Part shown: positions 9,592 to 57,698 of the stretch, one piece after another
Layout of the letters: each line of letters opens with the position of its first letter
Position numbering within the stretch: the stretch's first letter is position 1
Assembly (NCBI GenBank): GCA_022564635.1
Contig: JADFLA010000001.1
Location: 7,041 to 71,040, forward strand
Direction: 5' to 3'
DNA length: 64,000 nt
Origin: Nanobdellota archaeon
GTDB lineage: Archaea; Nanobdellota; Nanobdellia; Woesearchaeales; GW2011-AR4
Notes under the pieces: model-generated
Told to the model about the DNA's origin: nothing
Database searches by the model: none
What the model saw: only the letters and a program-made list of their open reading frames with translations
Translations under genes and position numbers: made by a program

Positions 9592-9861
9592 CTAAATATA
9601 GTAAGATTGGTGTCTACCCCCTACAACCAAAAAAGATAATGAGAAAATAATAATAATCACTCCTATCGATATAATTAATAAAGAATATATTTTATGTTTT
9701 TTCCAAAATTTACTATCCTTTATAAATGTTTGACTTTTTCTCCCTAGCAATAAATTAAGATTTTTTATCTCATCCTTAATACGTCTAATTTCTCTTTCAG
9801 AATAGCGCTTTTCTACTGTTTTTTTTAATTTATTAAAATAATTTTCAGATTCTTGTTCCAT
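9592..9861 (-). CDS. hypothetical tail-anchored small membrane protein
   Basis: charged N-terminal half, single C-terminal TM; 7 nt upstream of 9126..9584 (same strand). Confidence 0.35.
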   Translation of the reverse strand: MEQESENYFNKLKKTVEKRYSEREIRRIKDEIKNLNLLLGRKSQTFIKDSKFWKKHKIYSLLIISIGVIIIIFSLSFLVVGGRHQSYYI

Positions 9862-10051
9862 AAAATAGTTATTTTACGGTTCTAATATATAAAAAATTCT
9901 ATATTTTAATACGATATCTTAACAAAGATTTTGATATTTATTAAATATTATTTAAAAAAGTTCACATAATATCGCAAATTCTATTATCAAATCTCATTAG
10001 CTCTTTGAGCCTTCGCATAATCTATTGAAGACTATACGGCTTCGCTACGAC

Positions 10052-10747
10052 CTAACTTTTCCTAAATTTTCTTGATAAGTACTCAATCAATCTGAATGTA
10101 CGCTCTCCAAATATGGAAGCGGTACCTATAACAATTGCTATAAGCGTAATAATAAGATTCAAAATAGGCAAGTATCCTTTAACAATTAAGTATATGGTGA
10201 AGGATATAAATAAGATTACAAATATACCAATAAACGCTTTAATACGCCCAATTTTATTTAACCATGAAAGAATTATAAAGACCAAAGCGTATAATAAAAA
10301 TGTGTACATTACTCCCCACATAAATGAAGAGAGGAGTGCATCACTTAATGAAGGGGAATTTTGGAAGATTGCGGAATATTCTTCTGAATAGAATAAAACA
10401 ATAATACTAAAAAGCGCATATGTTACAAGAAAAGCTATTGCTATAACGGTCATTTCGCTAGACCAGTGAATAATTGAAATTCTCTCTTGAAATTTTTTTA
10501 ACTGAGATTTTCCTTTTTCATCTTTTGGGAGATATATATCAAATTTGGCGTTATGTTTAGATACCACATTTTGTCTTGTTAAATCATCTAATGCTGTTCT
10601 AAGAATCTTAGGTTTCAAGGATAATTTGTTTCTTATATATTTGAATGAGAATTCTTCTATATTCGAATCTTTTTTAGTTATAAGATCATATAAATGGTTT
10701 CTTACTTTTGCTCTTGTTTCTTCTCTCGTCAATAATTTTTTTGACAT
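10052..10747 (-). CDS. membrane-tethered winged-helix-like protein (N-terminal HTH-like domain fused to 4-5 TM helices)
   Basis: N-terminal 90 aa soluble, helix-rich (…LRTALDDLTRQNVVSKHNAKFDIYLP…), followed by multiple hydrophobic helices. Confidence 0.4.
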   Translation of the reverse strand: MSKKLLTREETRAKVRNHLYDLITKKDSNIEEFSFKYIRNKLSLKPKILRTALDDLTRQNVVSKHNAKFDIYLPKDEKGKSQLKKFQERISIIHWSSEMTVIAIAFLVTYALFSIIVLFYSEEYSAIFQNSPSLSDALLSSFMWGVMYTFLLYALVFIILSWLNKIGRIKAFIGIFVILFISFTIYLIVKGYLPILNLIITLIAIVIGTASIFGERTFRLIEYLSRKFRKS

Positions 10748-43369: not shown

Positions 43370-43774
43370 TTAAGAAAACTTCGGAATTGGTTTTCCGTGA
43401 GGGTCCTCTTGGGGATTTCCCAATAATCTCCTTAATTTTTCAATTGCTTCATCGCTAAAAGCATGCTCAAGCTTATGAGCTTCTTCATGTATACCCTCTG
43501 AATTTATACGCAATATATTTTTCAAAAAACTCTCAATTATTCTATGCTTGAATGTCAGTTTTTGTGCAATTTTTTTACCCTTAGATGTAAACTTCAGCTT
43601 TGAATATTTCTTATACTCCACCAATCCTTCCCTATTAAGCTGTTGAAGCATCTCAGAAACAGAAGGCTTTGTTATATTTAGATAATCAGCAAGATCAACT
43701 GATTTTACATAAGGATCATCTTCCATCAAATGATATATTCCCCTCAAATAATCTTCCTTATTAGCACTCTCCAT
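43370..43774 (-). CDS. DtxR/MntR-family metal-dependent transcriptional repressor
   Basis: EDYLRGIYHLMEDDPYVKSVDLADYLNITKPSVSEMLQQLNREGLV wHTH; metal-site region. Confidence 0.8.
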   Translation of the reverse strand: MESANKEDYLRGIYHLMEDDPYVKSVDLADYLNITKPSVSEMLQQLNREGLVEYKKYSKLKFTSKGKKIAQKLTFKHRIIESFLKNILRINSEGIHEEAHKLEHAFSDEAIEKLRRLLGNPQEDPHGKPIPKFS

Positions 43775-44047
43775 AAAAGTTAGGCTAACCTAACTTATAT
43801 ATAAAGGTTTCGGAAAAGTATAATTATTCAGCTTTACGAGGTCAATCATTTAATTTTATTGTTTATTTCTAATCTGTGCCTTCGGCACGAATTTTACTGC
43901 TCGGCAAAATTTGTCCTGCCATTAAATTTCGCCTCGCCTATTTATTCACTAAAAATAATTTTATTTTAAATTTTAAAAAAGTCAATAATGGTTATAATTT
44001 CTTAACAAAAAGATAAATTAATAAACGCCCTATATTTTACAATTTTA

Positions 44048-53637: not shown

Positions 53638-53827
53638 CTTAAAATTTTTAATCAGTTCTTAAAACTTTTAATTCACACAATTCTTATATATTTTAGTTAT
53701 TGATTAAATATTTTAATTATTCTTAATACATTAATTTCTATATTGAAAAATAAAATTTAGACTATTGGAACTGAACTATTACTAGATCAGTAAAAACATA
53801 GAAACTTATTTTTGAGTATATATTGTG

Positions 53828-54574
53828 TTAATACAAATCCCTAAAGCTGAAAGAACCGTACAGATTAGTCCGTCTAAATTGAGAAACTAATGCCCTTAAC
53901 TCTTCTACACCAGGGGTTTCGTCAGAAGCTGACTCTAATGCTTCTTCCGCAAATCCTATTTGTCTAGAGAAATCAGTAGGATCTGTAAGGACTTTTGGTT
54001 CATATATACCAGACCCTGGTTTTATGTAAGATCTTACTAAATCCATAAATTCCCTTACAATATGTGAAAAATCACCATTATCCCTTACTTCATCTGTAAT
54101 ATCTGCCCAACTCCCCCTTATTTGCTCACTACCTTCTCTTTCTAATAATTTTTCTGGTTGATAAATCTGCGGATCAAACTTACTTCCCTTTTCCGTCATA
54201 GTATAAAATTTTTCCGCCATTTCTTCAATTGTTGGTGTAACAAAAACAGAAAAACCAAAAAAAGGACCTCTCACATCATCTTTAGATTCTGCCCCATAAG
54301 ACATAGGCCTTTGTAAGCCCCACAGTACATTAAAAAGTCCTCTATGAGATTCTTGATGATCAGAAAATTCAGTTCCAAATGCATTTTCAGCTCTCAAGTC
54401 ACAAAGTTCCTGATAAAAAGTAGCCATTCCACGAGCATCTTGGATCGTTCCTAATTTTTGAGCCAAATCAGGCATACCCTTTTCTTTTAAATAGTCCATT
54501 GGCTTATTTAATATAGTTCCTTGATCTTGAGTCATTGTATTTTCACCCCAATACGAACCATTAAAGTATAGCAA
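53828..54574 (-). CDS. hypothetical protein (GC-rich, probably acquired)
   Basis: ORF only; composition ~40% GC vs ~28% flanks. Confidence 0.35.
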   Translation of the reverse strand: MLYFNGSYWGENTMTQDQGTILNKPMDYLKEKGMPDLAQKLGTIQDARGMATFYQELCDLRAENAFGTEFSDHQESHRGLFNVLWGLQRPMSYGAESKDDVRGPFFGFSVFVTPTIEEMAEKFYTMTEKGSKFDPQIYQPEKLLEREGSEQIRGSWADITDEVRDNGDFSHIVREFMDLVRSYIKPGSGIYEPKVLTDPTDFSRQIGFAEEALESASDETPGVEELRALVSQFRRTNLYGSFSFRDLY

Positions 54575-54953
54575 CTATTTAAATCTTTCGTTTTTGTAGC
54601 CACAGTAAAGTGGTGAATAAAGTATCAAAATTAAAGGGTGGGCGGAGGCTTGAGTCATTCACTCAGTTCTGAGCACGGTGGTGGGTAACATTATTATTTT
54701 TATTGAATTTTAATTATTGTAAGCATTATCAACTTTACACTCAAATGCAACATTTTAGATAAAAAATCCAACTTTCACTTCAAAATCAACATCAGCAATG
54801 GAAAAATTTTATTGTAGCCTTGCTTAATCCTCAAAAACTAAAAATCTAATGCAAAAATATTTATACTCATTCCAATAAGGCTGTTAACACGTTCCAATAA
54901 GGGAACCCATACTGGAATGGTTAAAGGTCAAAAATTCGTAGGTTTTAAGGGCT

Positions 54954-55688
54954 ATGACTGAAAAAGTAGGCATTTATGTGCGTGTTTCAACTGAGGAGCA
55001 AGCAAAAGAAGGAATAAGTGTAGATGCGCAGATAGATAGGTGTAAGGCTTTTTGTAAAGCAAGGGCTTGGAAAGTATTTAGAATTTATACTGATGCTGGT
55101 TATTCAGCTGGATCAATGGATAGGCCTGCATTGAAGAATTTGTTTGATGATATTACCAATAAAAAAATTAATATTTTGCTGGTTTACAAAATTGACAGAT
55201 TTTCAAGAAAACTAAAGGATTTGATATCTATATTGGAGGACCTACAATCAAAAGGTGTTAACTTCACATCTGTTACTGAGCAGATCGATACAACAACAGC
55301 AATGGGGGAAGCCTTTTTCCAGATAATTGGTGTTTTTGCGCAACTTGAAAGAGGTATGGTAAAAGAAAGAGTTGAAATGGCTTTTGATAAAAAGATTAGT
55401 TCTGGTGAAATTCTTAATAGGGCTCCAATGGGTTATGTTTATAGAAATGGCAAGCTTTTCGTAAATGAGGAAGAGGCAGAGAAAGTTAGAGAAATCTTCA
55501 ATATGTGGGCAACTGGGATCAATTACAAAGAAATAGCTAAAAAATTCAATATTCCGGTTTCAACATTGTATGAAATTGTTAAGAATCCTACTTATATCGG
55601 AAAAGTAAAATATAGGAATAAATTATATGGTGGGGTTCATAAAGGCATTATTGATGAAGAATTATTCCAAAAAGTAAATGGTAAGTAA
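54954..55688 (+). CDS. serine recombinase (resolvase catalytic domain + partial recombinase domain; probably 3'-truncated large serine recombinase)
   Basis: GIYVRVSTEEQ (catalytic Ser), DRFSR, then recombinase-domain start APMGYVYRNGKLFVNEEEAEKVREIFNMW…; lacks zinc-ribbon/coiled-coil C-terminus. Confidence 0.75.
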   Translation: MTEKVGIYVRVSTEEQAKEGISVDAQIDRCKAFCKARAWKVFRIYTDAGYSAGSMDRPALKNLFDDITNKKINILLVYKIDRFSRKLKDLISILEDLQSKGVNFTSVTEQIDTTTAMGEAFFQIIGVFAQLERGMVKERVEMAFDKKISSGEILNRAPMGYVYRNGKLFVNEEEAEKVREIFNMWATGINYKEIAKKFNIPVSTLYEIVKNPTYIGKVKYRNKLYGGVHKGIIDEELFQKVNGK

Positions 55689-56035
55689 CCGTATCCAAGC
55701 GATTTTCATGATAGTCTATTAAATCTGATAAGATTTTTCCTTATAAGTCCAGGCAAAGCAAAAGTTCACATAATATACATTAGATGACGTTTTGCCCTGC
55801 CACGATTAATAGAACATTCTTTTCAGAACGAATAGACTGATAGATTATGAGGTTTGATATATTGATTACAATACGAAAATTACAATAATTCATTAAATTT
55901 TGATTCAATAAAAAAATTACAATGATCCTATCATGTCGTCATTCCACCACCCCCACCTTTTTATTTACTACTAAATAATGATTAAAAATAGAAAGATTTA
56001 TATACTAGTAGATCCTATTTCTTACAGTCAACAAA

Positions 56036-56959
56036 ATGTCAGAAACTGAAGATCTAAAACGTAGAGTAATGGAAGAGTATGTACAAATTATTAGCCCCGT
56101 TGTTGGGGAAAATACGGCATTAGCTAATAGATTAACTTCCGACTTAGATGGAATTCTTGATAGAGAATTAGGAAAATTACCCGATAATGAAGCTATTAAA
56201 GAACCAGCTGAAGTGTCGCAGTTAGATTATTCAAGATTAGGCCCTGTTACAAATGATGGCAATAGATATACTCTTGCTCAAATTTTGGAAATGCGTATCG
56301 ACATATTTGCTGAAAGACATACTGGGATTGATGGTACAGATAAAAGTATTTTGCATAATTATTTTAATCAAGTAGCGAAAGGTCATATTAAGGGTACCTC
56401 GTGGGATAGGGCAATGTATGGTTCTCGAGCAGATCATGAGAGAATAAAAAATCCAATTAGTAAAACTAAGGAACAAGCATTAGACTTTATTGGAGTTACA
56501 GAAGAAATGTTTGATACAGCTAATGAATTCTTGCAAAAGCATTATGGCATTAGCCTAGGGACAAAGATTGATGAAGTAGAATTAGCTCGAAATAAAGAAC
56601 TTACAGATGCACGAGAACTGTACACGACACAAGGCCCGTGTATGGAAGACGGACAGAGATATACAACTGCTCAAATCTTGGGTATGGACCTAAATTATTT
56701 TTTACGAACACATAGGGATTCTTTGAAACAAGAGGGTGTACAATCATTAATGACCAAATACTTTCACCAAGTAGATAGTCACAGCCAGCTAGAATGGGGA
56801 GACCTAACAAAAGTTATAGATGCAATTCAAATCTCGCCATTTGATAGCGGAAACCTGCCGGGCATAGGTAATACAACAATTGAAAAAGTTAACCAATATT
56901 TCCAAAACAATTACGACATCACATTAGGAACAAAATTTAGGTTGAGTTCACATAATTAA
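56036..56959 (+). CDS. hypothetical protein with two-fold internal repeat, GC-rich, bracketed by 15-bp inverted repeats
   Basis: repeat units NDGNRYTLAQILEMRIDIF…NYFNQV / EDGQRYTTAQILGMDLNYF…KYFHQV; no catalytic motif recognised. Confidence 0.4.
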   Translation: MSETEDLKRRVMEEYVQIISPVVGENTALANRLTSDLDGILDRELGKLPDNEAIKEPAEVSQLDYSRLGPVTNDGNRYTLAQILEMRIDIFAERHTGIDGTDKSILHNYFNQVAKGHIKGTSWDRAMYGSRADHERIKNPISKTKEQALDFIGVTEEMFDTANEFLQKHYGISLGTKIDEVELARNKELTDARELYTTQGPCMEDGQRYTTAQILGMDLNYFLRTHRDSLKQEGVQSLMTKYFHQVDSHSQLEWGDLTKVIDAIQISPFDSGNLPGIGNTTIEKVNQYFQNNYDITLGTKFRLSSHN

Positions 56960-57431
56960 TCTTAATTCTACTATCAAACCTCATAATCACTTCTCAGCTT
57001 CGCAAAAAGTATTGAACTTTTTACGCAGAGCTCTTCGAGACCTTTTTGTTCCAAAAAGTCGCTGAGAACAAGATACGGCAGGGCAAAACGTGTAACCCCT
57101 TCGGGCATCTAATGCACGCTTTATGGTTCGCTCCTTGTTCGCTCTGAGCTCACAATCTCGTTCAACCTACGTTTTTCTCAACTCTAAAAAAATTCCCACT
57201 CTACAACTTGTGGAATGCCTCAAGTTGTGAGGGCAATTTTATTGAGGAGAAAAACATCATAAAGCTTCCCATTAGGCGAACATTTTGAACTCCACTTTGT
57301 GTTTAATCTACTGATTTAAACCGTAATTTTAGCTTTACCGGTTTCGCAAAAAATTAAGATTTTTTACGTAAACCTTACAGGACGTTTTTCTTTTAACGGT
57401 TCTTTGAGATTACGGAATGTGTGTAAGATAT

Positions 57432-57698
57432 TTAATCCATCTTCAAAAATTCATCAATATATTCCATTATTTTCTCTTTCTTATCCAAATTGATAGACAC
57501 CTGTTTTCCATAACCTGTTTTCTTCAAATGTAATATTCCTTCTTTGATTAATTCTTGTGACATATCTTTGGTTCTTCCTCTCACTTCTGGTGAAAAACCT
57601 TTTGATAAATTATCTAACGCTGTATGACTATGTTCAAACTTTCCCTTACGAGTTAATTTATGCAATATCTTTCCTTTAATTTGATTATCAGTCCACAT
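57432..57698 (-). CDS. small wHTH-like protein (paralogue of 15603..15872), divergent partner of regulator
   Basis: IKGKILHKLTRKG…HTALDNLSKG…TKDMSQELIKEGILHLKKTGYGKQVSINLDKKEK collinear with 15603 product. Confidence 0.45.
   Translation of the reverse strand: MWTDNQIKGKILHKLTRKGKFEHSHTALDNLSKGFSPEVRGRTKDMSQELIKEGILHLKKTGYGKQVSINLDKKEKIMEYIDEFLKMD

What the first reader, a model, noticed from the sequence alone, without database searches (positions are those of the whole stretch)
55787..57091. Single GC-rich ORF bracketed by a perfect 15-bp GC-rich inverted repeat (ACGTTTTGCCCTGCC ... GGCAGGGCAAAACGT)
A 15/15 inverted repeat with 10 G+C is very unlikely by chance in a genome with about 28% GC. 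The repeats flank a 1.3-kb segment containing only 56036..56959, a protein with a two-fold internal repeat and no recognisable family. The segment begins about 100 bp after the truncated serine-recombinase gene. This may be a MITE-like or non-autonomous cassette whose insertion truncated the recombinase, or a stem bringing the transcript ends together. A related motif TTTGYCCTGCCA also occurs at 43895-43906 in the dtxR promoter region.
Basis: seen in the sequence. Interest (0 to 1): 0.55.

Follow-up and report, generated by a model that had tools for sequence, protein, structure and literature searches.

The report
Gene cassette inserted at archaeal Xer site
The inverted repeat is real and appears to be the two halves of a hairpin-forming attachment site, split when a small one-gene cassette inserted at the XerA recombinase (dif-like) site of a DPANN archaeon, a gene-capture arrangement I found no report of in archaea.

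Summary
The 15/15 inverted repeat is real. It extends to 24/24 once a 14-nt bulge in the right arm is allowed.

It is not a pair of transposon ends. The left arm contains the right half of an 11-6-11 dif-like site (AGTTCACATAA|TATACA|TTAGATGACGT, 55763-55790). In every close relative examined, that site lies directly upstream of xerA, the host's Xer recombinase gene.

The repeat belongs to a 1,492-bp cassette (55778-57269). Relatives keep the same arms but carry different genes between them. Two near-identical contigs differ only by a related 1,810-bp cassette, inserted exactly at the spacer edge. That is an occupied/empty pair.

Six cassette types each have their own arm sequences. The arms are complementary within a cassette but differ between types. 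Joined as an excised circle, they fold into one conserved hairpin with strong covariation.

Best reading: a non-autonomous cassette integrated by XerA-type site-specific recombination. It resembles bacterial Xer-exploiting elements (IMEX) and integron cassettes. The catalyst and any single-stranded intermediate are inferred, not shown.

The neighbouring serine recombinase is probably not truncated. In this genome it occupies the slot where relatives have xerA. The function of the 307-aa cargo protein is unknown.

The parts
55763..55790 (.). dif-like Xer core site. Left arm AGTTCACATAA (55763-55773), spacer TATACA (55774-55779), right arm TTAGATGACGT (55780-55790).
   Evidence: It has the 11-6-11 architecture described for archaeal dif (PMC2958812, PMC8371274). 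The same site, with the same TATACA spacer, lies 30-50 bp upstream of xerA in L008, L011, L012, L016, L017, L018 and L021. L013 has a TCACCA spacer and L010 has GGTACA. Homology between loci breaks at the spacer/right-arm edge.
55778..55801 (+). It forms the left end of the cassette.
   Evidence: It is 24/24 complementary to the right arm. Conservation in L001, L008, L010, L011, L012 and L013 starts exactly here.
55778..57269 (+). The whole integrated cassette, 1,492 bp.
   Evidence: It corresponds to the 1,810-bp segment (L008 22-1831) that is present in L008 and absent from the otherwise identical L016. It is bounded on the right by the next CATTAGGCGA arm at 57270.
55802..55960 (+). Conserved non-coding leader. 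It includes the left half of the nested 17-bp inverted repeat (55843-55859) and ends in a C-rich motif.
   Evidence: It is 78-93% identical in L001, L008, L010, L011, L012 and L014, although the genes that follow differ.
55997..56004 (+). TATA-like box (TTTATATA), about 32 nt upstream of the ATG. This is the cassette's own promoter (inferred).
   Evidence: Read directly from the sequence. The same AAAGATTTATATA block precedes cargo genes in L003-L006 and L014, and a similar AAAGTTTATATA box is present in the L010 copy that lacks this gene.
56036..56959 (+). Cargo gene: a 307-aa protein made of two copies of a ~125-aa unit, each ending in a helix-hairpin-helix-like motif. Function unknown.
   Evidence: Internal repeat E = 2e-12. 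Only 3 homologues among 5.8 billion proteins, two of them single-unit proteins. No family, PDB or fold match.
56945..56972 (+). Second site-like element: AGTTCACATAA | TTAATC | TTAATTCTACT. It marks the right edge of the variable cargo slot.
   Evidence: The arms are conserved and the 6-bp centre varies in L008, L012 and L014. The same left arm occurs at 55763 and at 9959.
56972..56988 (+). Right half of the nested 17/17 inverted repeat.
   Evidence: pair I15. It is conserved in all relatives.
56999..57025 (+). A 'TTCGCA-stem-loop-stem-TACG' hairpin. Its 3' foot is a second breakpoint.
   Evidence: L001 homology ends at 57023. L010 carries a 630-bp insert with a toxin-antitoxin-type gene pair at 57024. 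Hairpins of this type with different upper stems occur at 57345-57375, at 10012-10040 and in L008 and L010.
57077..57114 (+). Right arm of the inverted repeat: the inner 15-mer (57077-57091), a 14-nt inserted mini-hairpin GTAACCCCTTCGGG (57092-57105), and the outer CATCTAATG (57106-57114).
   Evidence: In 8 of 9 cassette copies examined the right arm is split by a 10-26 nt insert at this position. L012 is the exception.
57115..57269 (+). Segment Y, the apical part of the attachment hairpin. An 8-bp helix closes it (57118-57125 with 57258-57265), and it contains an 85-nt hairpin (57171-57255) with a conserved loop.
   Evidence: The closing helix is 8/8 in 7 cases, with 5 different sequences. 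In the inner hairpin, 8 of 35 pairs show changes on both sides. For the whole junction, 20 of 69 pairs do, against 2-5 in slid controls.
57270..57405 (+). The next Xer-type arm (CATTAGGCGAACATTTTGAACTCC) and the sequence after it. This is the chromosomal side of the site, or an older decayed unit with no right arm.
   Evidence: It is homologous to the sequence that follows the site directly in the empty allele L016 and follows the cassette in L008. No partner arm was detected.
53756..55762 (.). Context: ORF248 (53828-54574, minus strand) and a 244-aa serine recombinase (54954-55688, plus strand) occupy the slot that holds xerA in relatives.
   Evidence: Relatives have the gene order xerA, 188-aa gene, 214-aa gene, methyltransferase, RpoL, GatB. 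Homology to L013 stops at about window 53755, where xerA ends in L013. No XerA homologue is encoded in the window.

Best explanation
Window 55778-57269 is a small, non-autonomous gene cassette. It integrated by tyrosine-recombinase (XerA-type) site-specific recombination at a dif-like site that in related Woesearchaeota-like DPANN archaea lies directly upstream of xerA.

Proposed mechanism:
1. As an excised circle, the cassette would carry a long imperfect palindrome. This is the right arm, the ~155-nt segment Y, and the left arm.
2. The palindrome folds into a hairpin. One stem reproduces a Xer binding arm (TTAGATGAC / GTCATCTAA). A small internal loop lies at the crossover point (CA|TTA).
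3. Recombination with the chromosomal site opens the palindrome. One half (the left arm) becomes the left end of the integrated cassette. The other half (right arm plus Y) ends up at its right end.
5. The xerA-proximal junction stays a good site, so further cassettes can stack there. Arrays of two or three are seen in relatives.

Shown: the site and its link to xerA; the sharp junctions; the occupied/empty alleles; arms specific to each cassette; hairpin covariation.

Inferred: XerA is the catalyst; the site is the chromosomal dif; a circular intermediate exists; the hairpin acts as folded single-stranded DNA, as in CTXphi attP or integron attC.
For: 1. The repeat is exact and extends to 24/24 around a 14-nt bulge.

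2. The left arm overlaps an 11-6-11 site. The same site (spacer TATACA in most loci; TCACCA in L013, GGTACA in L010) lies 30-50 bp upstream of xerA in L008, L010, L011, L012, L013, L016, L017, L018 and L021. A genome whose XerA is only 67% identical (L019) keeps the identical arm ACGTCATCTAA 1.2 kb from xerA.

3. The recombinase passes the archaeal XerA equivalog model (259 bits, cutoff 220). It has over 5,400 homologues at E < 1e-30, those with names being Woesearchaeota/Nanoarchaeota, so it looks like a host housekeeping gene.

4. Occupied/empty pair: L016 and L008 are 100% identical over 1,088 bp. L008 has 1,810 extra bp inserted between ...GTAATATA and CATTATGTGACG, and the insert begins CATTAGATGACG.

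5. Homology boundaries fall at the same point in L001, L008, L010, L011, L012 and L013.

6. The same frame carries different cargo. L008 has 225-aa and 130-aa ORFs. L012 has a 138-aa ORF. L014 has 369-aa and 323-aa ORFs. L010 has a DUF2283/DUF4258 pair. The cassette family also sits in front of different neighbours and at first or second array position.

7. Six cassette types each have their own arm pair. Complementarity within a cassette is 20-24 of 24-26 positions in seven copies scored in register. Inner arms of different types share only 6-10 of 14 positions.

8. Reconstructed circle junctions of 6 cassettes fold into one architecture. On their alignment, 92.5% of cells pair, against 43-54% when partners are slid. 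20 of 69 pairs change on both sides, against 2-5 slid and 7.5 +/- 2 shuffled (0 of 500 shuffles reach it).

9. Precedent: archaeal dif is 11-6-11 with cleavage at the spacer edges (PMC2958812, PMC8371274). Some archaea have a linked xerA/dif module, and CTXphi integrates through a folded hairpin of two inverted attP sites about 90 nt apart (PMC5357621).
Against: - No biochemical or read-level evidence exists for excision, circles or XerA activity.
- All data come from metagenomic contigs.
- The window itself encodes no XerA in its 64 kb, so this copy may be immobile or depend on a gene elsewhere.
- The cassette-side left arm of the reconstructed site (ACATCATAAAG) matches the arm consensus poorly, and its spacing is 7-8 nt rather than 6.
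- L001 carries the gene with only the left arm. It ends at the foot of an internal hairpin (57023), which the simple model does not predict.
- How cargo is exchanged inside a conserved frame is not explained. Homologous recombination between frames, or the second site at 56945, could contribute.
- Covariation cannot tell folded DNA from RNA.
- The covariation sample is small (5 sequences, three sharing the same arms), and the tested structure was derived from one of them.
- The dimer-resolution role of the site is untested.
Confidence: 0.65

Rival explanations
1. The arms and segment Y are parts of a structured RNA. This could be a long 5'/3' pairing or a 3'-UTR/terminator structure that controls expression or stability of whatever gene lies between them. 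The locus would then vary by ordinary recombination.
For: - Strong covariation in all stems.
- The inserts form mini-hairpins with UUCG- and GCAA-type loops, which are typical RNA motifs.
- The region is a G+C-rich island in an A+T-rich genome.
- Several oligo-T runs follow the ORF.
- The units fold much better than shuffled sequence (z = -4.4 to -6.9).
Against: - No Rfam family matches, even at E = 10.
- The left arm lies about 200 nt upstream of the cargo's own TATA box, so one transcript would need a second, unseen promoter.
- Both strands fold about equally well.
- An RNA role does not explain the 11-6-11 site next to xerA, the junction at the spacer edge, or the occupied/empty alleles.
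- The two readings are not exclusive. The right arm and Y could also act as a terminator.
Confidence: 0.12
2. This is a hypervariable chromosomal locus. Conserved non-coding flanks serve as homology for gene replacement by homologous recombination. The inverted repeat is a palindromic regulatory or structural element, not a recombination site.
For: - The leader and right block are conserved at 78-93% while the cargo differs.
- The locus is syntenic in several relatives.
- Exchange of cargo inside the frame is otherwise unexplained.
Against: - The L008/L016 insertion has no flanking homology beyond about 16 bp.
- L001 carries the block in unrelated flanks on both sides.
- Boundaries coincide with the spacer of a Xer-type site.
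- Arms specific to each cassette and tandem arrays are not expected from simple replacement.
Confidence: 0.08
3. The 1.3-kb segment is an invertible DNA switch. The adjacent serine recombinase would flip it between the inverted repeats, as in Hin/Gin systems.
For: - A serine recombinase gene ends 99 bp from the left arm.
- The repeats are inverted and perfect.
- PHROG and NCBIfam list DNA-invertase families among its matches.
Against: - The same repeats bracket cassettes next to xerA, with no serine recombinase, in L008, L010 and L012.
- Wherever both arms are seen (window, L008, L010, L012), the frame has the same orientation relative to its flanks.
- The right arm is split by a 14-nt insert.
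- The cargo carries its own promoter, so flipping would not switch it.
- The recombinase's best matches are integrase-type large serine recombinases.
Confidence: 0.05
4. It is a MITE or mobile insertion cassette: transposon ends with terminal inverted repeats, moved in trans by a transposase.
For: - Inverted repeats bracket a passenger gene, and no transposase lies inside.
- Small ORF-less units with similar arms exist (L010 units A and C).
- A related repeat block occurs elsewhere in the window, at 9956-10066.
Against: - The right repeat is not terminal. The insertion in L008 runs 133 bp past the end of the right arm (about 155 bp in the window).
- There is no target-site duplication. The shared CATTA is part of a 14/16 match between the element end and the target.
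- All integrations seen with a resolvable junction are at one specific site type.
- The inner arm sequence differs between cassette types, which a common transposase would not tolerate.
- No transposase was found nearby.
Confidence: 0.05

Closest known systems
[quoted passage not shown]
   Same: - The element has no recombinase of its own.
- It integrates at the host Xer/dif-type site, with the crossover at a spacer edge.
- Elements stack in tandem at the site.
- The attachment region consists of two inverted site copies about 90-155 nt apart that can fold into a hairpin presenting a Xer-like duplex with an unpaired centre (PMC5357621).
   Different: - The host is archaeal, with a single XerA rather than XerC/XerD.
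- The elements are one- or two-gene cassettes of 0.3-2.6 kb, not phages or islands.
- The palindrome is split so that its halves bracket the cargo.
- The right arm carries a bulged mini-hairpin.
- No single-stranded life stage is known.
Integron gene cassettes and attC sites, including the archaeal integrons of Ghaly et al. 2022 (PMC9668308)
   Same: - A tyrosine recombinase gene lies beside an insertion site and reads away from an array of small cassettes.
- Cargo is mostly hypothetical, secreted or toxin-antitoxin genes.
- Recombination sites are conserved in structure more than in sequence: conserved outer box, variable but complementary inner box, bulges, variable apex.
- Sites are more alike within a lineage than between lineages.
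   Different: - The recombinase is XerA, not IntI. It falls below the IntI model cutoff and matches it in two pieces.
- The core is CATTAGRYGAC, not GTTRRRY.
- The crossover splits the hairpin so that about 24 nt go to the 5' end of the cassette.
- Cassettes carry their own TATA-box promoter.
Acinetobacter pdif (dif) modules
   Same: Discrete modules, often toxin-antitoxin or accessory genes, are bounded by Xer-type sites in inverted orientation and occur in different contexts and orders (PMC6449649, PMC13141974).
   Different: - Those are on Rep_3 plasmids of a bacterial genus and have complete XerC-spacer-XerD sites at both ends.
- Here the context is chromosomal and archaeal.
- Only half-sites bracket the module.
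- The arms extend into sequences specific to each cassette.
Linked recombinase/site modules (XerS/difSL of streptococci; xerA/dif modules noted in some archaea)
   Same: A single Xer recombinase gene is genetically linked to its cognate site (PMC5357621).
   Different: Those descriptions concern chromosome dimer resolution only. No cassette arrays at the site have been reported there.

Membership tests
IMEX (Xer-exploiting integrative element) | The element encodes no recombinase of its own. | tested here: met
   55778-57269 contains only ORF307, which matches no recombinase family.
IMEX (Xer-exploiting integrative element) | It is integrated at the host Xer recombination (dif-type) site, with the junction in or at the central region. 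| tested here: met
   The junction lies at the spacer/right-arm edge of the xerA-linked 11-6-11 site. The empty allele L016 and the occupied allele L008 show this directly. Whether the site is the chromosomal dimer-resolution site was not tested.
IMEX (Xer-exploiting integrative element) | The element carries a dif-like attP. | tested here: inconclusive
   The reconstructed junction gives ACATCATAAAG|CTTCCCA|TTAGATGACGT as duplex DNA (poor left arm, 7-nt spacer). Alternatively it gives a folded hairpin whose stem reproduces the arm.
IMEX (Xer-exploiting integrative element) | Integration is catalysed by the host Xer recombinase. | not testable with these tools
   This is inferred only from the linkage of the site to xerA.
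Integron | An IntI integrase with the IntI-specific additional domain. | tested here: not met
   TIGR02249 scores 222 bits, below its cutoff of 265, and matches in two stretches. The XerA equivalog NF040815 passes at 259 bits against 220. The protein is 273 aa.
Integron | attC sites with R''/R' cores (RYYYAAC / GTTRRRY) and crossover at G|TT. | tested here: not met
   The conserved core is CATTAGRYGAC / GTCRYCTAATG, and the crossover is at CA|TTA.
Integron | A recombination site conserved as a folded hairpin with bulges and a variable apex. | tested here: met
   Common fold of 6 junctions. Covariation: 20 of 69 pairs change on both sides, and 92.5% of cells pair. This shows resemblance in mode of action only.
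Integron | Promoterless cassettes expressed from a common promoter. | tested here: not met
   A TATA-like box lies inside the cassette at 55997-56004. Cargo genes occur in both orientations in L008 and L014.
MITE / mobile insertion cassette | Inverted repeats at both termini, flanked by a target-site duplication. | tested here: not met
   The right repeat lies inside the right junction (about 155 bp in the window, 133 bp in L008). There is no duplication beyond a CATTA core within a 14/16 match between the element end and the target.
Serine-recombinase invertible segment (Hin/Gin type) | Both orientations of the segment occur, and the recombinase is consistently linked to it. | tested here: not met
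   Only one orientation is seen wherever both arms are visible (window, L008, L010, L012). The serine recombinase is present only in the window arrangement.
Archaeal dif site | Two 11-bp imperfect inverted arms separated by a 6-bp spacer. | tested here: met
   Window: AGTTCACATAA|TATACA|TTAGATGACGT (7 of 11 symmetric). L021: ACGTCGCCTAA|TATACA|TTAGGTGACGT (10 of 11). L013: 10 of 11.
Archaeal dif site | Single copy, located at the replication terminus, and used for dimer resolution. | not testable with these tools
   Only fragments of genomes were available. The degenerate site scan of species-representative genomes returned only chance-level hits.

The most novel reading that the evidence does not exclude
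Woesearchaeota-like DPANN archaea have a gene-capture platform that is independent of integrons. In it, the housekeeping XerA recombinase and its linked dif-like site would act as integrase and attI. Small cassettes would carry their own promoters and be captured through structure-specific, hairpin-forming attachment sites. In the integrated state the two halves of each hairpin bracket the cargo.
Probability: 0.35. Interest if true: 0.85.

Novelty: new variant of a known kind. Interest (0 to 1): 0.68.

Why it matters
- Xer-exploiting elements and integrons are major routes of gene acquisition in bacteria. Neither has been described for archaeal XerA in the literature I could search.
- DPANN archaea have tiny genomes and depend on other cells. 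How they acquire and exchange accessory genes is poorly understood.
- A cassette array at the XerA site would give them a simple way to shuffle genes using a housekeeping enzyme.
- It would provide a sequence signature (CATTAGRYGAC arms plus the Y hairpin) for finding such cassettes in metagenomes.
- It would add a third example, after CTXphi attP and integron attC, of a tyrosine-recombinase site recognised as a folded structure.
- It also offers a testable XerA substrate for biochemistry.

Tried and rejected
- **Rfam:** whole window at gathering threshold and 55600-57500 at E <= 10. Nothing credible.
- **tRNA scan:** none, so this is not a tRNA-gene integration site.
- **Archaeal intron or rRNA-type processing stem (bulge-helix-bulge):** considered and dropped. 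The long helix contains no 3-4-3 bulge-helix-bulge motif, and there are no conserved exons outside the arms.
- **Interrupted serine recombinase gene continuing downstream:** rejected. No ORF continues after 57100, and the short length is native to the subfamily.
- **Replication origin or DtxR operator readings of the arms:** dropped, as the motifs do not match. A separate, genuine DtxR box lies at 43781-43794.
- **Cargo function:** Pfam, NCBIfam, PHROGs, PDB sequence search, an AlphaFold2 model (pLDDT 66) and Foldseek all gave nothing significant.
- **Exact 24-mer scans:** no hits in species-representative genomes or in viral contigs.
- **Degenerate site scan of genomes:** 28 hits, all but one (an Altiarchaeota MAG) in bacteria and none in Woesearchaeota, at about the number expected by chance.
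- **Bacterial promoter/terminator scan:** uninformative for an archaeon.
- **Exact-sequence look-up of the serine recombinase:** returned only the window's own arrangement. ORF248 was not on record.
- **Strand of folding from G-T versus A-C mismatches:** too few informative positions to decide.
Full report
**The observation.** ACGTTTTGCCCTGCC (55787-55801) and its reverse complement (57077-57091) are exact and are the only exact copies in the window. The pairing extends outward: CATTAGATG (55778-55786) is complementary to CATCTAATG (57106-57114). The arms are therefore 24/24 complementary, interrupted only by a 14-nt insert in the right arm (GTAACCCCTTCGGG, 57092-57105) that can form its own mini-hairpin. 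A second perfect 17/17 inverted repeat is nested inside, at 55843-55859 and 56972-56988. The spacing between the two helices is asymmetric, 41 nt on one side and 88 nt on the other. This is not what simple terminal inverted repeats look like.

**The cargo.** The single ORF (56036-56959, 307 aa) has a real two-fold internal repeat (E = 2e-12). It matches nothing in Pfam, NCBIfam, PHROGs or the PDB. It has only three homologues among 5.8 billion proteins. One is 93% identical. The other two are single-unit proteins of 168-172 aa, one of which is named as coming from a Nanoarchaeota MAG. An AlphaFold2 model is weak (pLDDT 66), and Foldseek finds nothing below E = 1. The only recurring hits, to the RNA polymerase alpha C-terminal domain, fit a helix-hairpin-helix-like GIG motif at the end of each repeat but are not significant.

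**The frame is conserved and the cargo is not.** A gapped pattern that matches both arms found seven metagenomic loci. It found none in viral contigs or species-representative genomes.
- In L008, L010, L012 and L014 the non-coding parts (window ~55771-55950 and ~56945-57350) are 78-92% identical to the window. The DNA between them is unrelated: two ORFs of 225 and 130 aa, one of 138 aa, two of 369 and 323 aa, or almost nothing.
- L010 also has a 630-bp insert carrying a DUF2283/DUF4258 gene pair. It sits exactly at the 3' foot of an internal hairpin, at window 57024.
- L001 carries the 93%-identical gene in unrelated flanks. It shares window 55778-57023 at 96%. It therefore starts at the first base of the extended left arm and lacks the right arm.
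- The arms are better conserved than neighbouring protein-coding DNA, which is about 76% identical.

**The arms are Xer-type site arms.** In the syntenic relatives L009, L010 and L013, the gene beside the left arm is a 273-aa tyrosine recombinase.
- It passes NCBI's archaeal XerA equivalog model (259 bits, cutoff 220) and fails the integron-integrase model (222 bits, cutoff 265, matched in two pieces).
- It has more than 5,400 homologues at E < 1e-30. Those that carry names are from Woesearchaeota or Nanoarchaeota. It looks like the host's housekeeping Xer enzyme.
- Contexts of homologues that are 79-81% identical show a fixed gene order: xerA, a 188-aa gene, a ~214-aa gene, a methyltransferase, RpoL and GatB. 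This matches window 53637 down to 47506.
- Directly upstream of xerA, every one of these loci has an imperfect palindrome of two 11-bp (up to 15-bp) arms around a 6-bp spacer. Examples are AAAACGTCGCCTAA|TATACA|TTAGGTGACGTTTT in L021 and CAAAACGTCGTCTAA|TCACCA|TTAGATGACGTTTTG in L013. The window has CAAAAGTTCACATAA|TATACA|TTAGATGACGTTTTG at 55759-55794.
- This is the architecture described for archaeal dif, whose cleavage points lie at the spacer edges (PMC2958812, PMC8371274). A linked xerA/dif module has been noted in some archaea (PMC5357621).
- A genome whose XerA is only 67% identical (L019, from a 1.3-Mb contig) keeps the identical arm ACGTCATCTAA 1.2 kb from xerA.

**Evidence of mobility.**
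- L016 (a Tara Oceans assembly) and L008 are 100% identical over 1,088 bp to the right of the site.
- L008 has an extra 1,810 bp inserted between …GTAATATA and CATTATGTGACG. The insert starts with CATTAGATGACGTTTTGCCCTGCC.
- The insert consists of the repeat-bracketed unit plus a further 133 bp, which I call segment Y. The window equivalent of the insert is 55778-57269.
- The two junctions share only CATTA, within a 14/16 match between the element end and the target. This is expected for recombination between related att sites. It is not expected for a target-site duplication or for homologous recombination.
- The same cassette family is followed by different neighbours in L008, L012 and window/L010. 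It is first in the array in L008 and L012 and second in L010 and L011.
- Several contigs end at or within a few dozen bases of the site (L002, L008, L011, L015). This fits assembly-graph branching there but is weak evidence.

**Why the repeats are inverted.**
- L010, L011 and L018 contain tandem units of the same design: CATTA-KRYGM plus about 14 variable bases on the left, and the complement of those bases, a 10-26 nt insert and the complement of the outer motif on the right.
- Six cassette types have different inner arms, sharing 6-10 of 14 positions. Within a cassette, complementarity is 24/24, 24/26, 24/25, 22/24 or 20/24 in the seven copies scored in register; two others need a gapped alignment.
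- After each right arm, an 8-nt strand pairs with the 8 nt just before the next CATTA. This helix is 8/8 in all seven cases, with five different sequences.
- I joined each right arm and Y to the cassette's own left arm, as an excised circle would. All six junctions fold the same way under both DNA and RNA parameters. The fold is stem I, a bulged mini-hairpin, stem II (the conserved Xer arm), a small internal loop at the crossover point, stem III, and a branched apex with a conserved loop.
- On an alignment of these junctions, 92.5% of cells pair, against 43-54% when partners are slid. 20 of 69 pairs change on both sides, against 2-5 slid and 7.5 +/- 2 shuffled (0 of 500).
- Caveats: there are only five sequences, three share the same arms, the left-arm part is reconstructed, and the structure was derived from one member.

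**Model.** The cassette's attachment site is a long hairpin-forming palindrome. Recombination at the CA|TTA edge with the xerA-linked site opens it. One half becomes the cassette's left end. The other half, plus Y, becomes its right end. The bracket of inverted repeats is the scar of that event.
- The xerA-proximal junction (chromosomal left arm plus cassette right arm) remains a good site. The distal junction is poor. This would favour stacking of new cassettes next to xerA and decay of older ones.
- In keeping with this, the unit beyond 57270 in the window has no right arm.
- The insert that splits nearly every right arm would inactivate it as a duplex site, yet it can be looped out in a folded form. 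This recalls the extrahelical bases of integron attC and the folded attP of CTXphi (PMC5357621). That part is inference.

**What the model does not explain.**
- The window lacks xerA in its 64 kb. The xerA slot, from the xerA stop codon to the site spacer (53756-55762), holds ORF248 and a 244-aa serine recombinase.
- The closest relatives of that recombinase (40-53% identical) are 247-318 aa and align almost to their C-termini. The protein is therefore probably a native short form, not a truncation caused by the cassette.
- The left flank of the site in the window mirrors the first ~60 nt of the cassette at about 70% identity. This forms a 126-bp palindrome that I cannot account for.
- L001 ends at the internal hairpin foot rather than at an arm.
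- How cargo is swapped within a conserved frame is unclear. The second site-like element at 56945-56972, which has conserved arms and a variable centre, may be involved.

**Rivals.**
- A structured-RNA role fits the covariation, the tetraloop-like inserts and the G+C-rich island. It does not explain the xerA linkage, the junction position or the occupied/empty alleles, and no Rfam family matches.
- Serine-recombinase inversion, terminal-inverted-repeat transposition, and plain homologous replacement each conflict with specific observations, as set out in the rival entries.

**Comparison with known systems.** The system works most like a Xer-exploiting integrative element of the CTXphi type, and like integron cassettes.
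- It fails integron membership on the integrase, the attC core and the promoterless-cassette criteria.
- It differs from Acinetobacter pdif modules in host, replicon and site structure.
- My searches of the paper library found canonical IntI/attC integrons in archaea (PMC9668308) but no archaeal Xer-exploiting elements and no cassette arrays linked to XerA. That library is incomplete, so novelty is probable rather than certain.

**Verdict.** I rate this a new variant of a known kind of system, with interest about 0.68.

Noticed in passing
window 53756-55762: The conserved slot that holds xerA in at least six related loci holds ORF248 (no known family) and a short 244-aa serine recombinase here. 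The replacement runs from the xerA stop codon to the spacer of the dif-like site. This could be a recombinase swap or a remnant of another element.
   Followed up: partly
window 55713-55838: A 126-bp imperfect palindrome (about 70% identity, E = 1.4e-14) is centred on the site spacer. The left flank mirrors the first ~60 nt of the cassette. Relatives that have xerA on that side do not show this. Its origin is unexplained.
   Followed up: partly
window 9740-10070: A second, partial copy of the cassette's right block. It starts with AAAAGTTCACATAATAT (17/17 identical to 55760-55776). A block about 78% identical to 56945-57016 follows. A TTCGCA...TACG hairpin region homologous to L010 5713-5772 is also present, and another hairpin-type match lies at 9747-9778. 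Part of this lies inside the listed ORF 9592-9861, which may therefore not be a real gene.
   Followed up: partly
window 43866-43935: A small stretch richer in G+C upstream of dtxR. It has a GTGCCTTCGGCAC hairpin, and TTTGTCCTGCCATTAA at 43910-43925 resembles the left arm (TTTGCCCTGCCAcgATTAA). It may be a degenerate relative of the arm or an unrelated small RNA.
   Followed up: no
window 43781-43794: A classical DtxR/IdeR-type operator palindrome (TTAGGCTAACCTAA) lies next to a TATA-like box, just upstream of the dtxR-family gene (43370-43774, minus strand). This suggests autoregulation.
   Followed up: no
window 57171-57255 and the Y segments of L010, L011 and L018: The apical hairpin of segment Y carries a conserved loop motif (GGRWTGCC, for example TGGAATGCCT or TGGGTTGCCT) in cassettes with otherwise different arms. 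It may be a binding site for an accessory factor.
   Followed up: partly
window 55940-55960: The conserved cassette leader ends in a C-rich motif (CATTCCACCACCCCCACC; G-rich on the other strand) just before the cargo promoter. It is conserved in L001, L010, L011 and L014.
   Followed up: no
L018 (about 30 nt from the xerA start, reverse strand) and L010 5497-5525: A second, inverted copy of the dif-like site lies between xerA and the main site: GGTCACATAA-TATA-TTACGCGTCC in L018 and GTTCGCATAA-TGCC-TTATTC in L010. The xerA promoter may therefore sit between two inverted sites in these genomes.
   Followed up: no
L001 1-152 and 932-1083: A 152-nt, 98% inverted repeat brackets a 279-aa ORF at the very start of the contig. 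It could be an assembly foldback artefact or another bracketed gene.
   Followed up: no
L018 (upstream of xerA), L003-L006: Genes near these arrays and near the single-unit homologue of the cargo protein are often toxin-antitoxin pairs (MazE/PIN, DUF2283/DUF4258) or small hypothetical proteins. This resembles the cargo typical of chromosomal integrons.
   Followed up: partly
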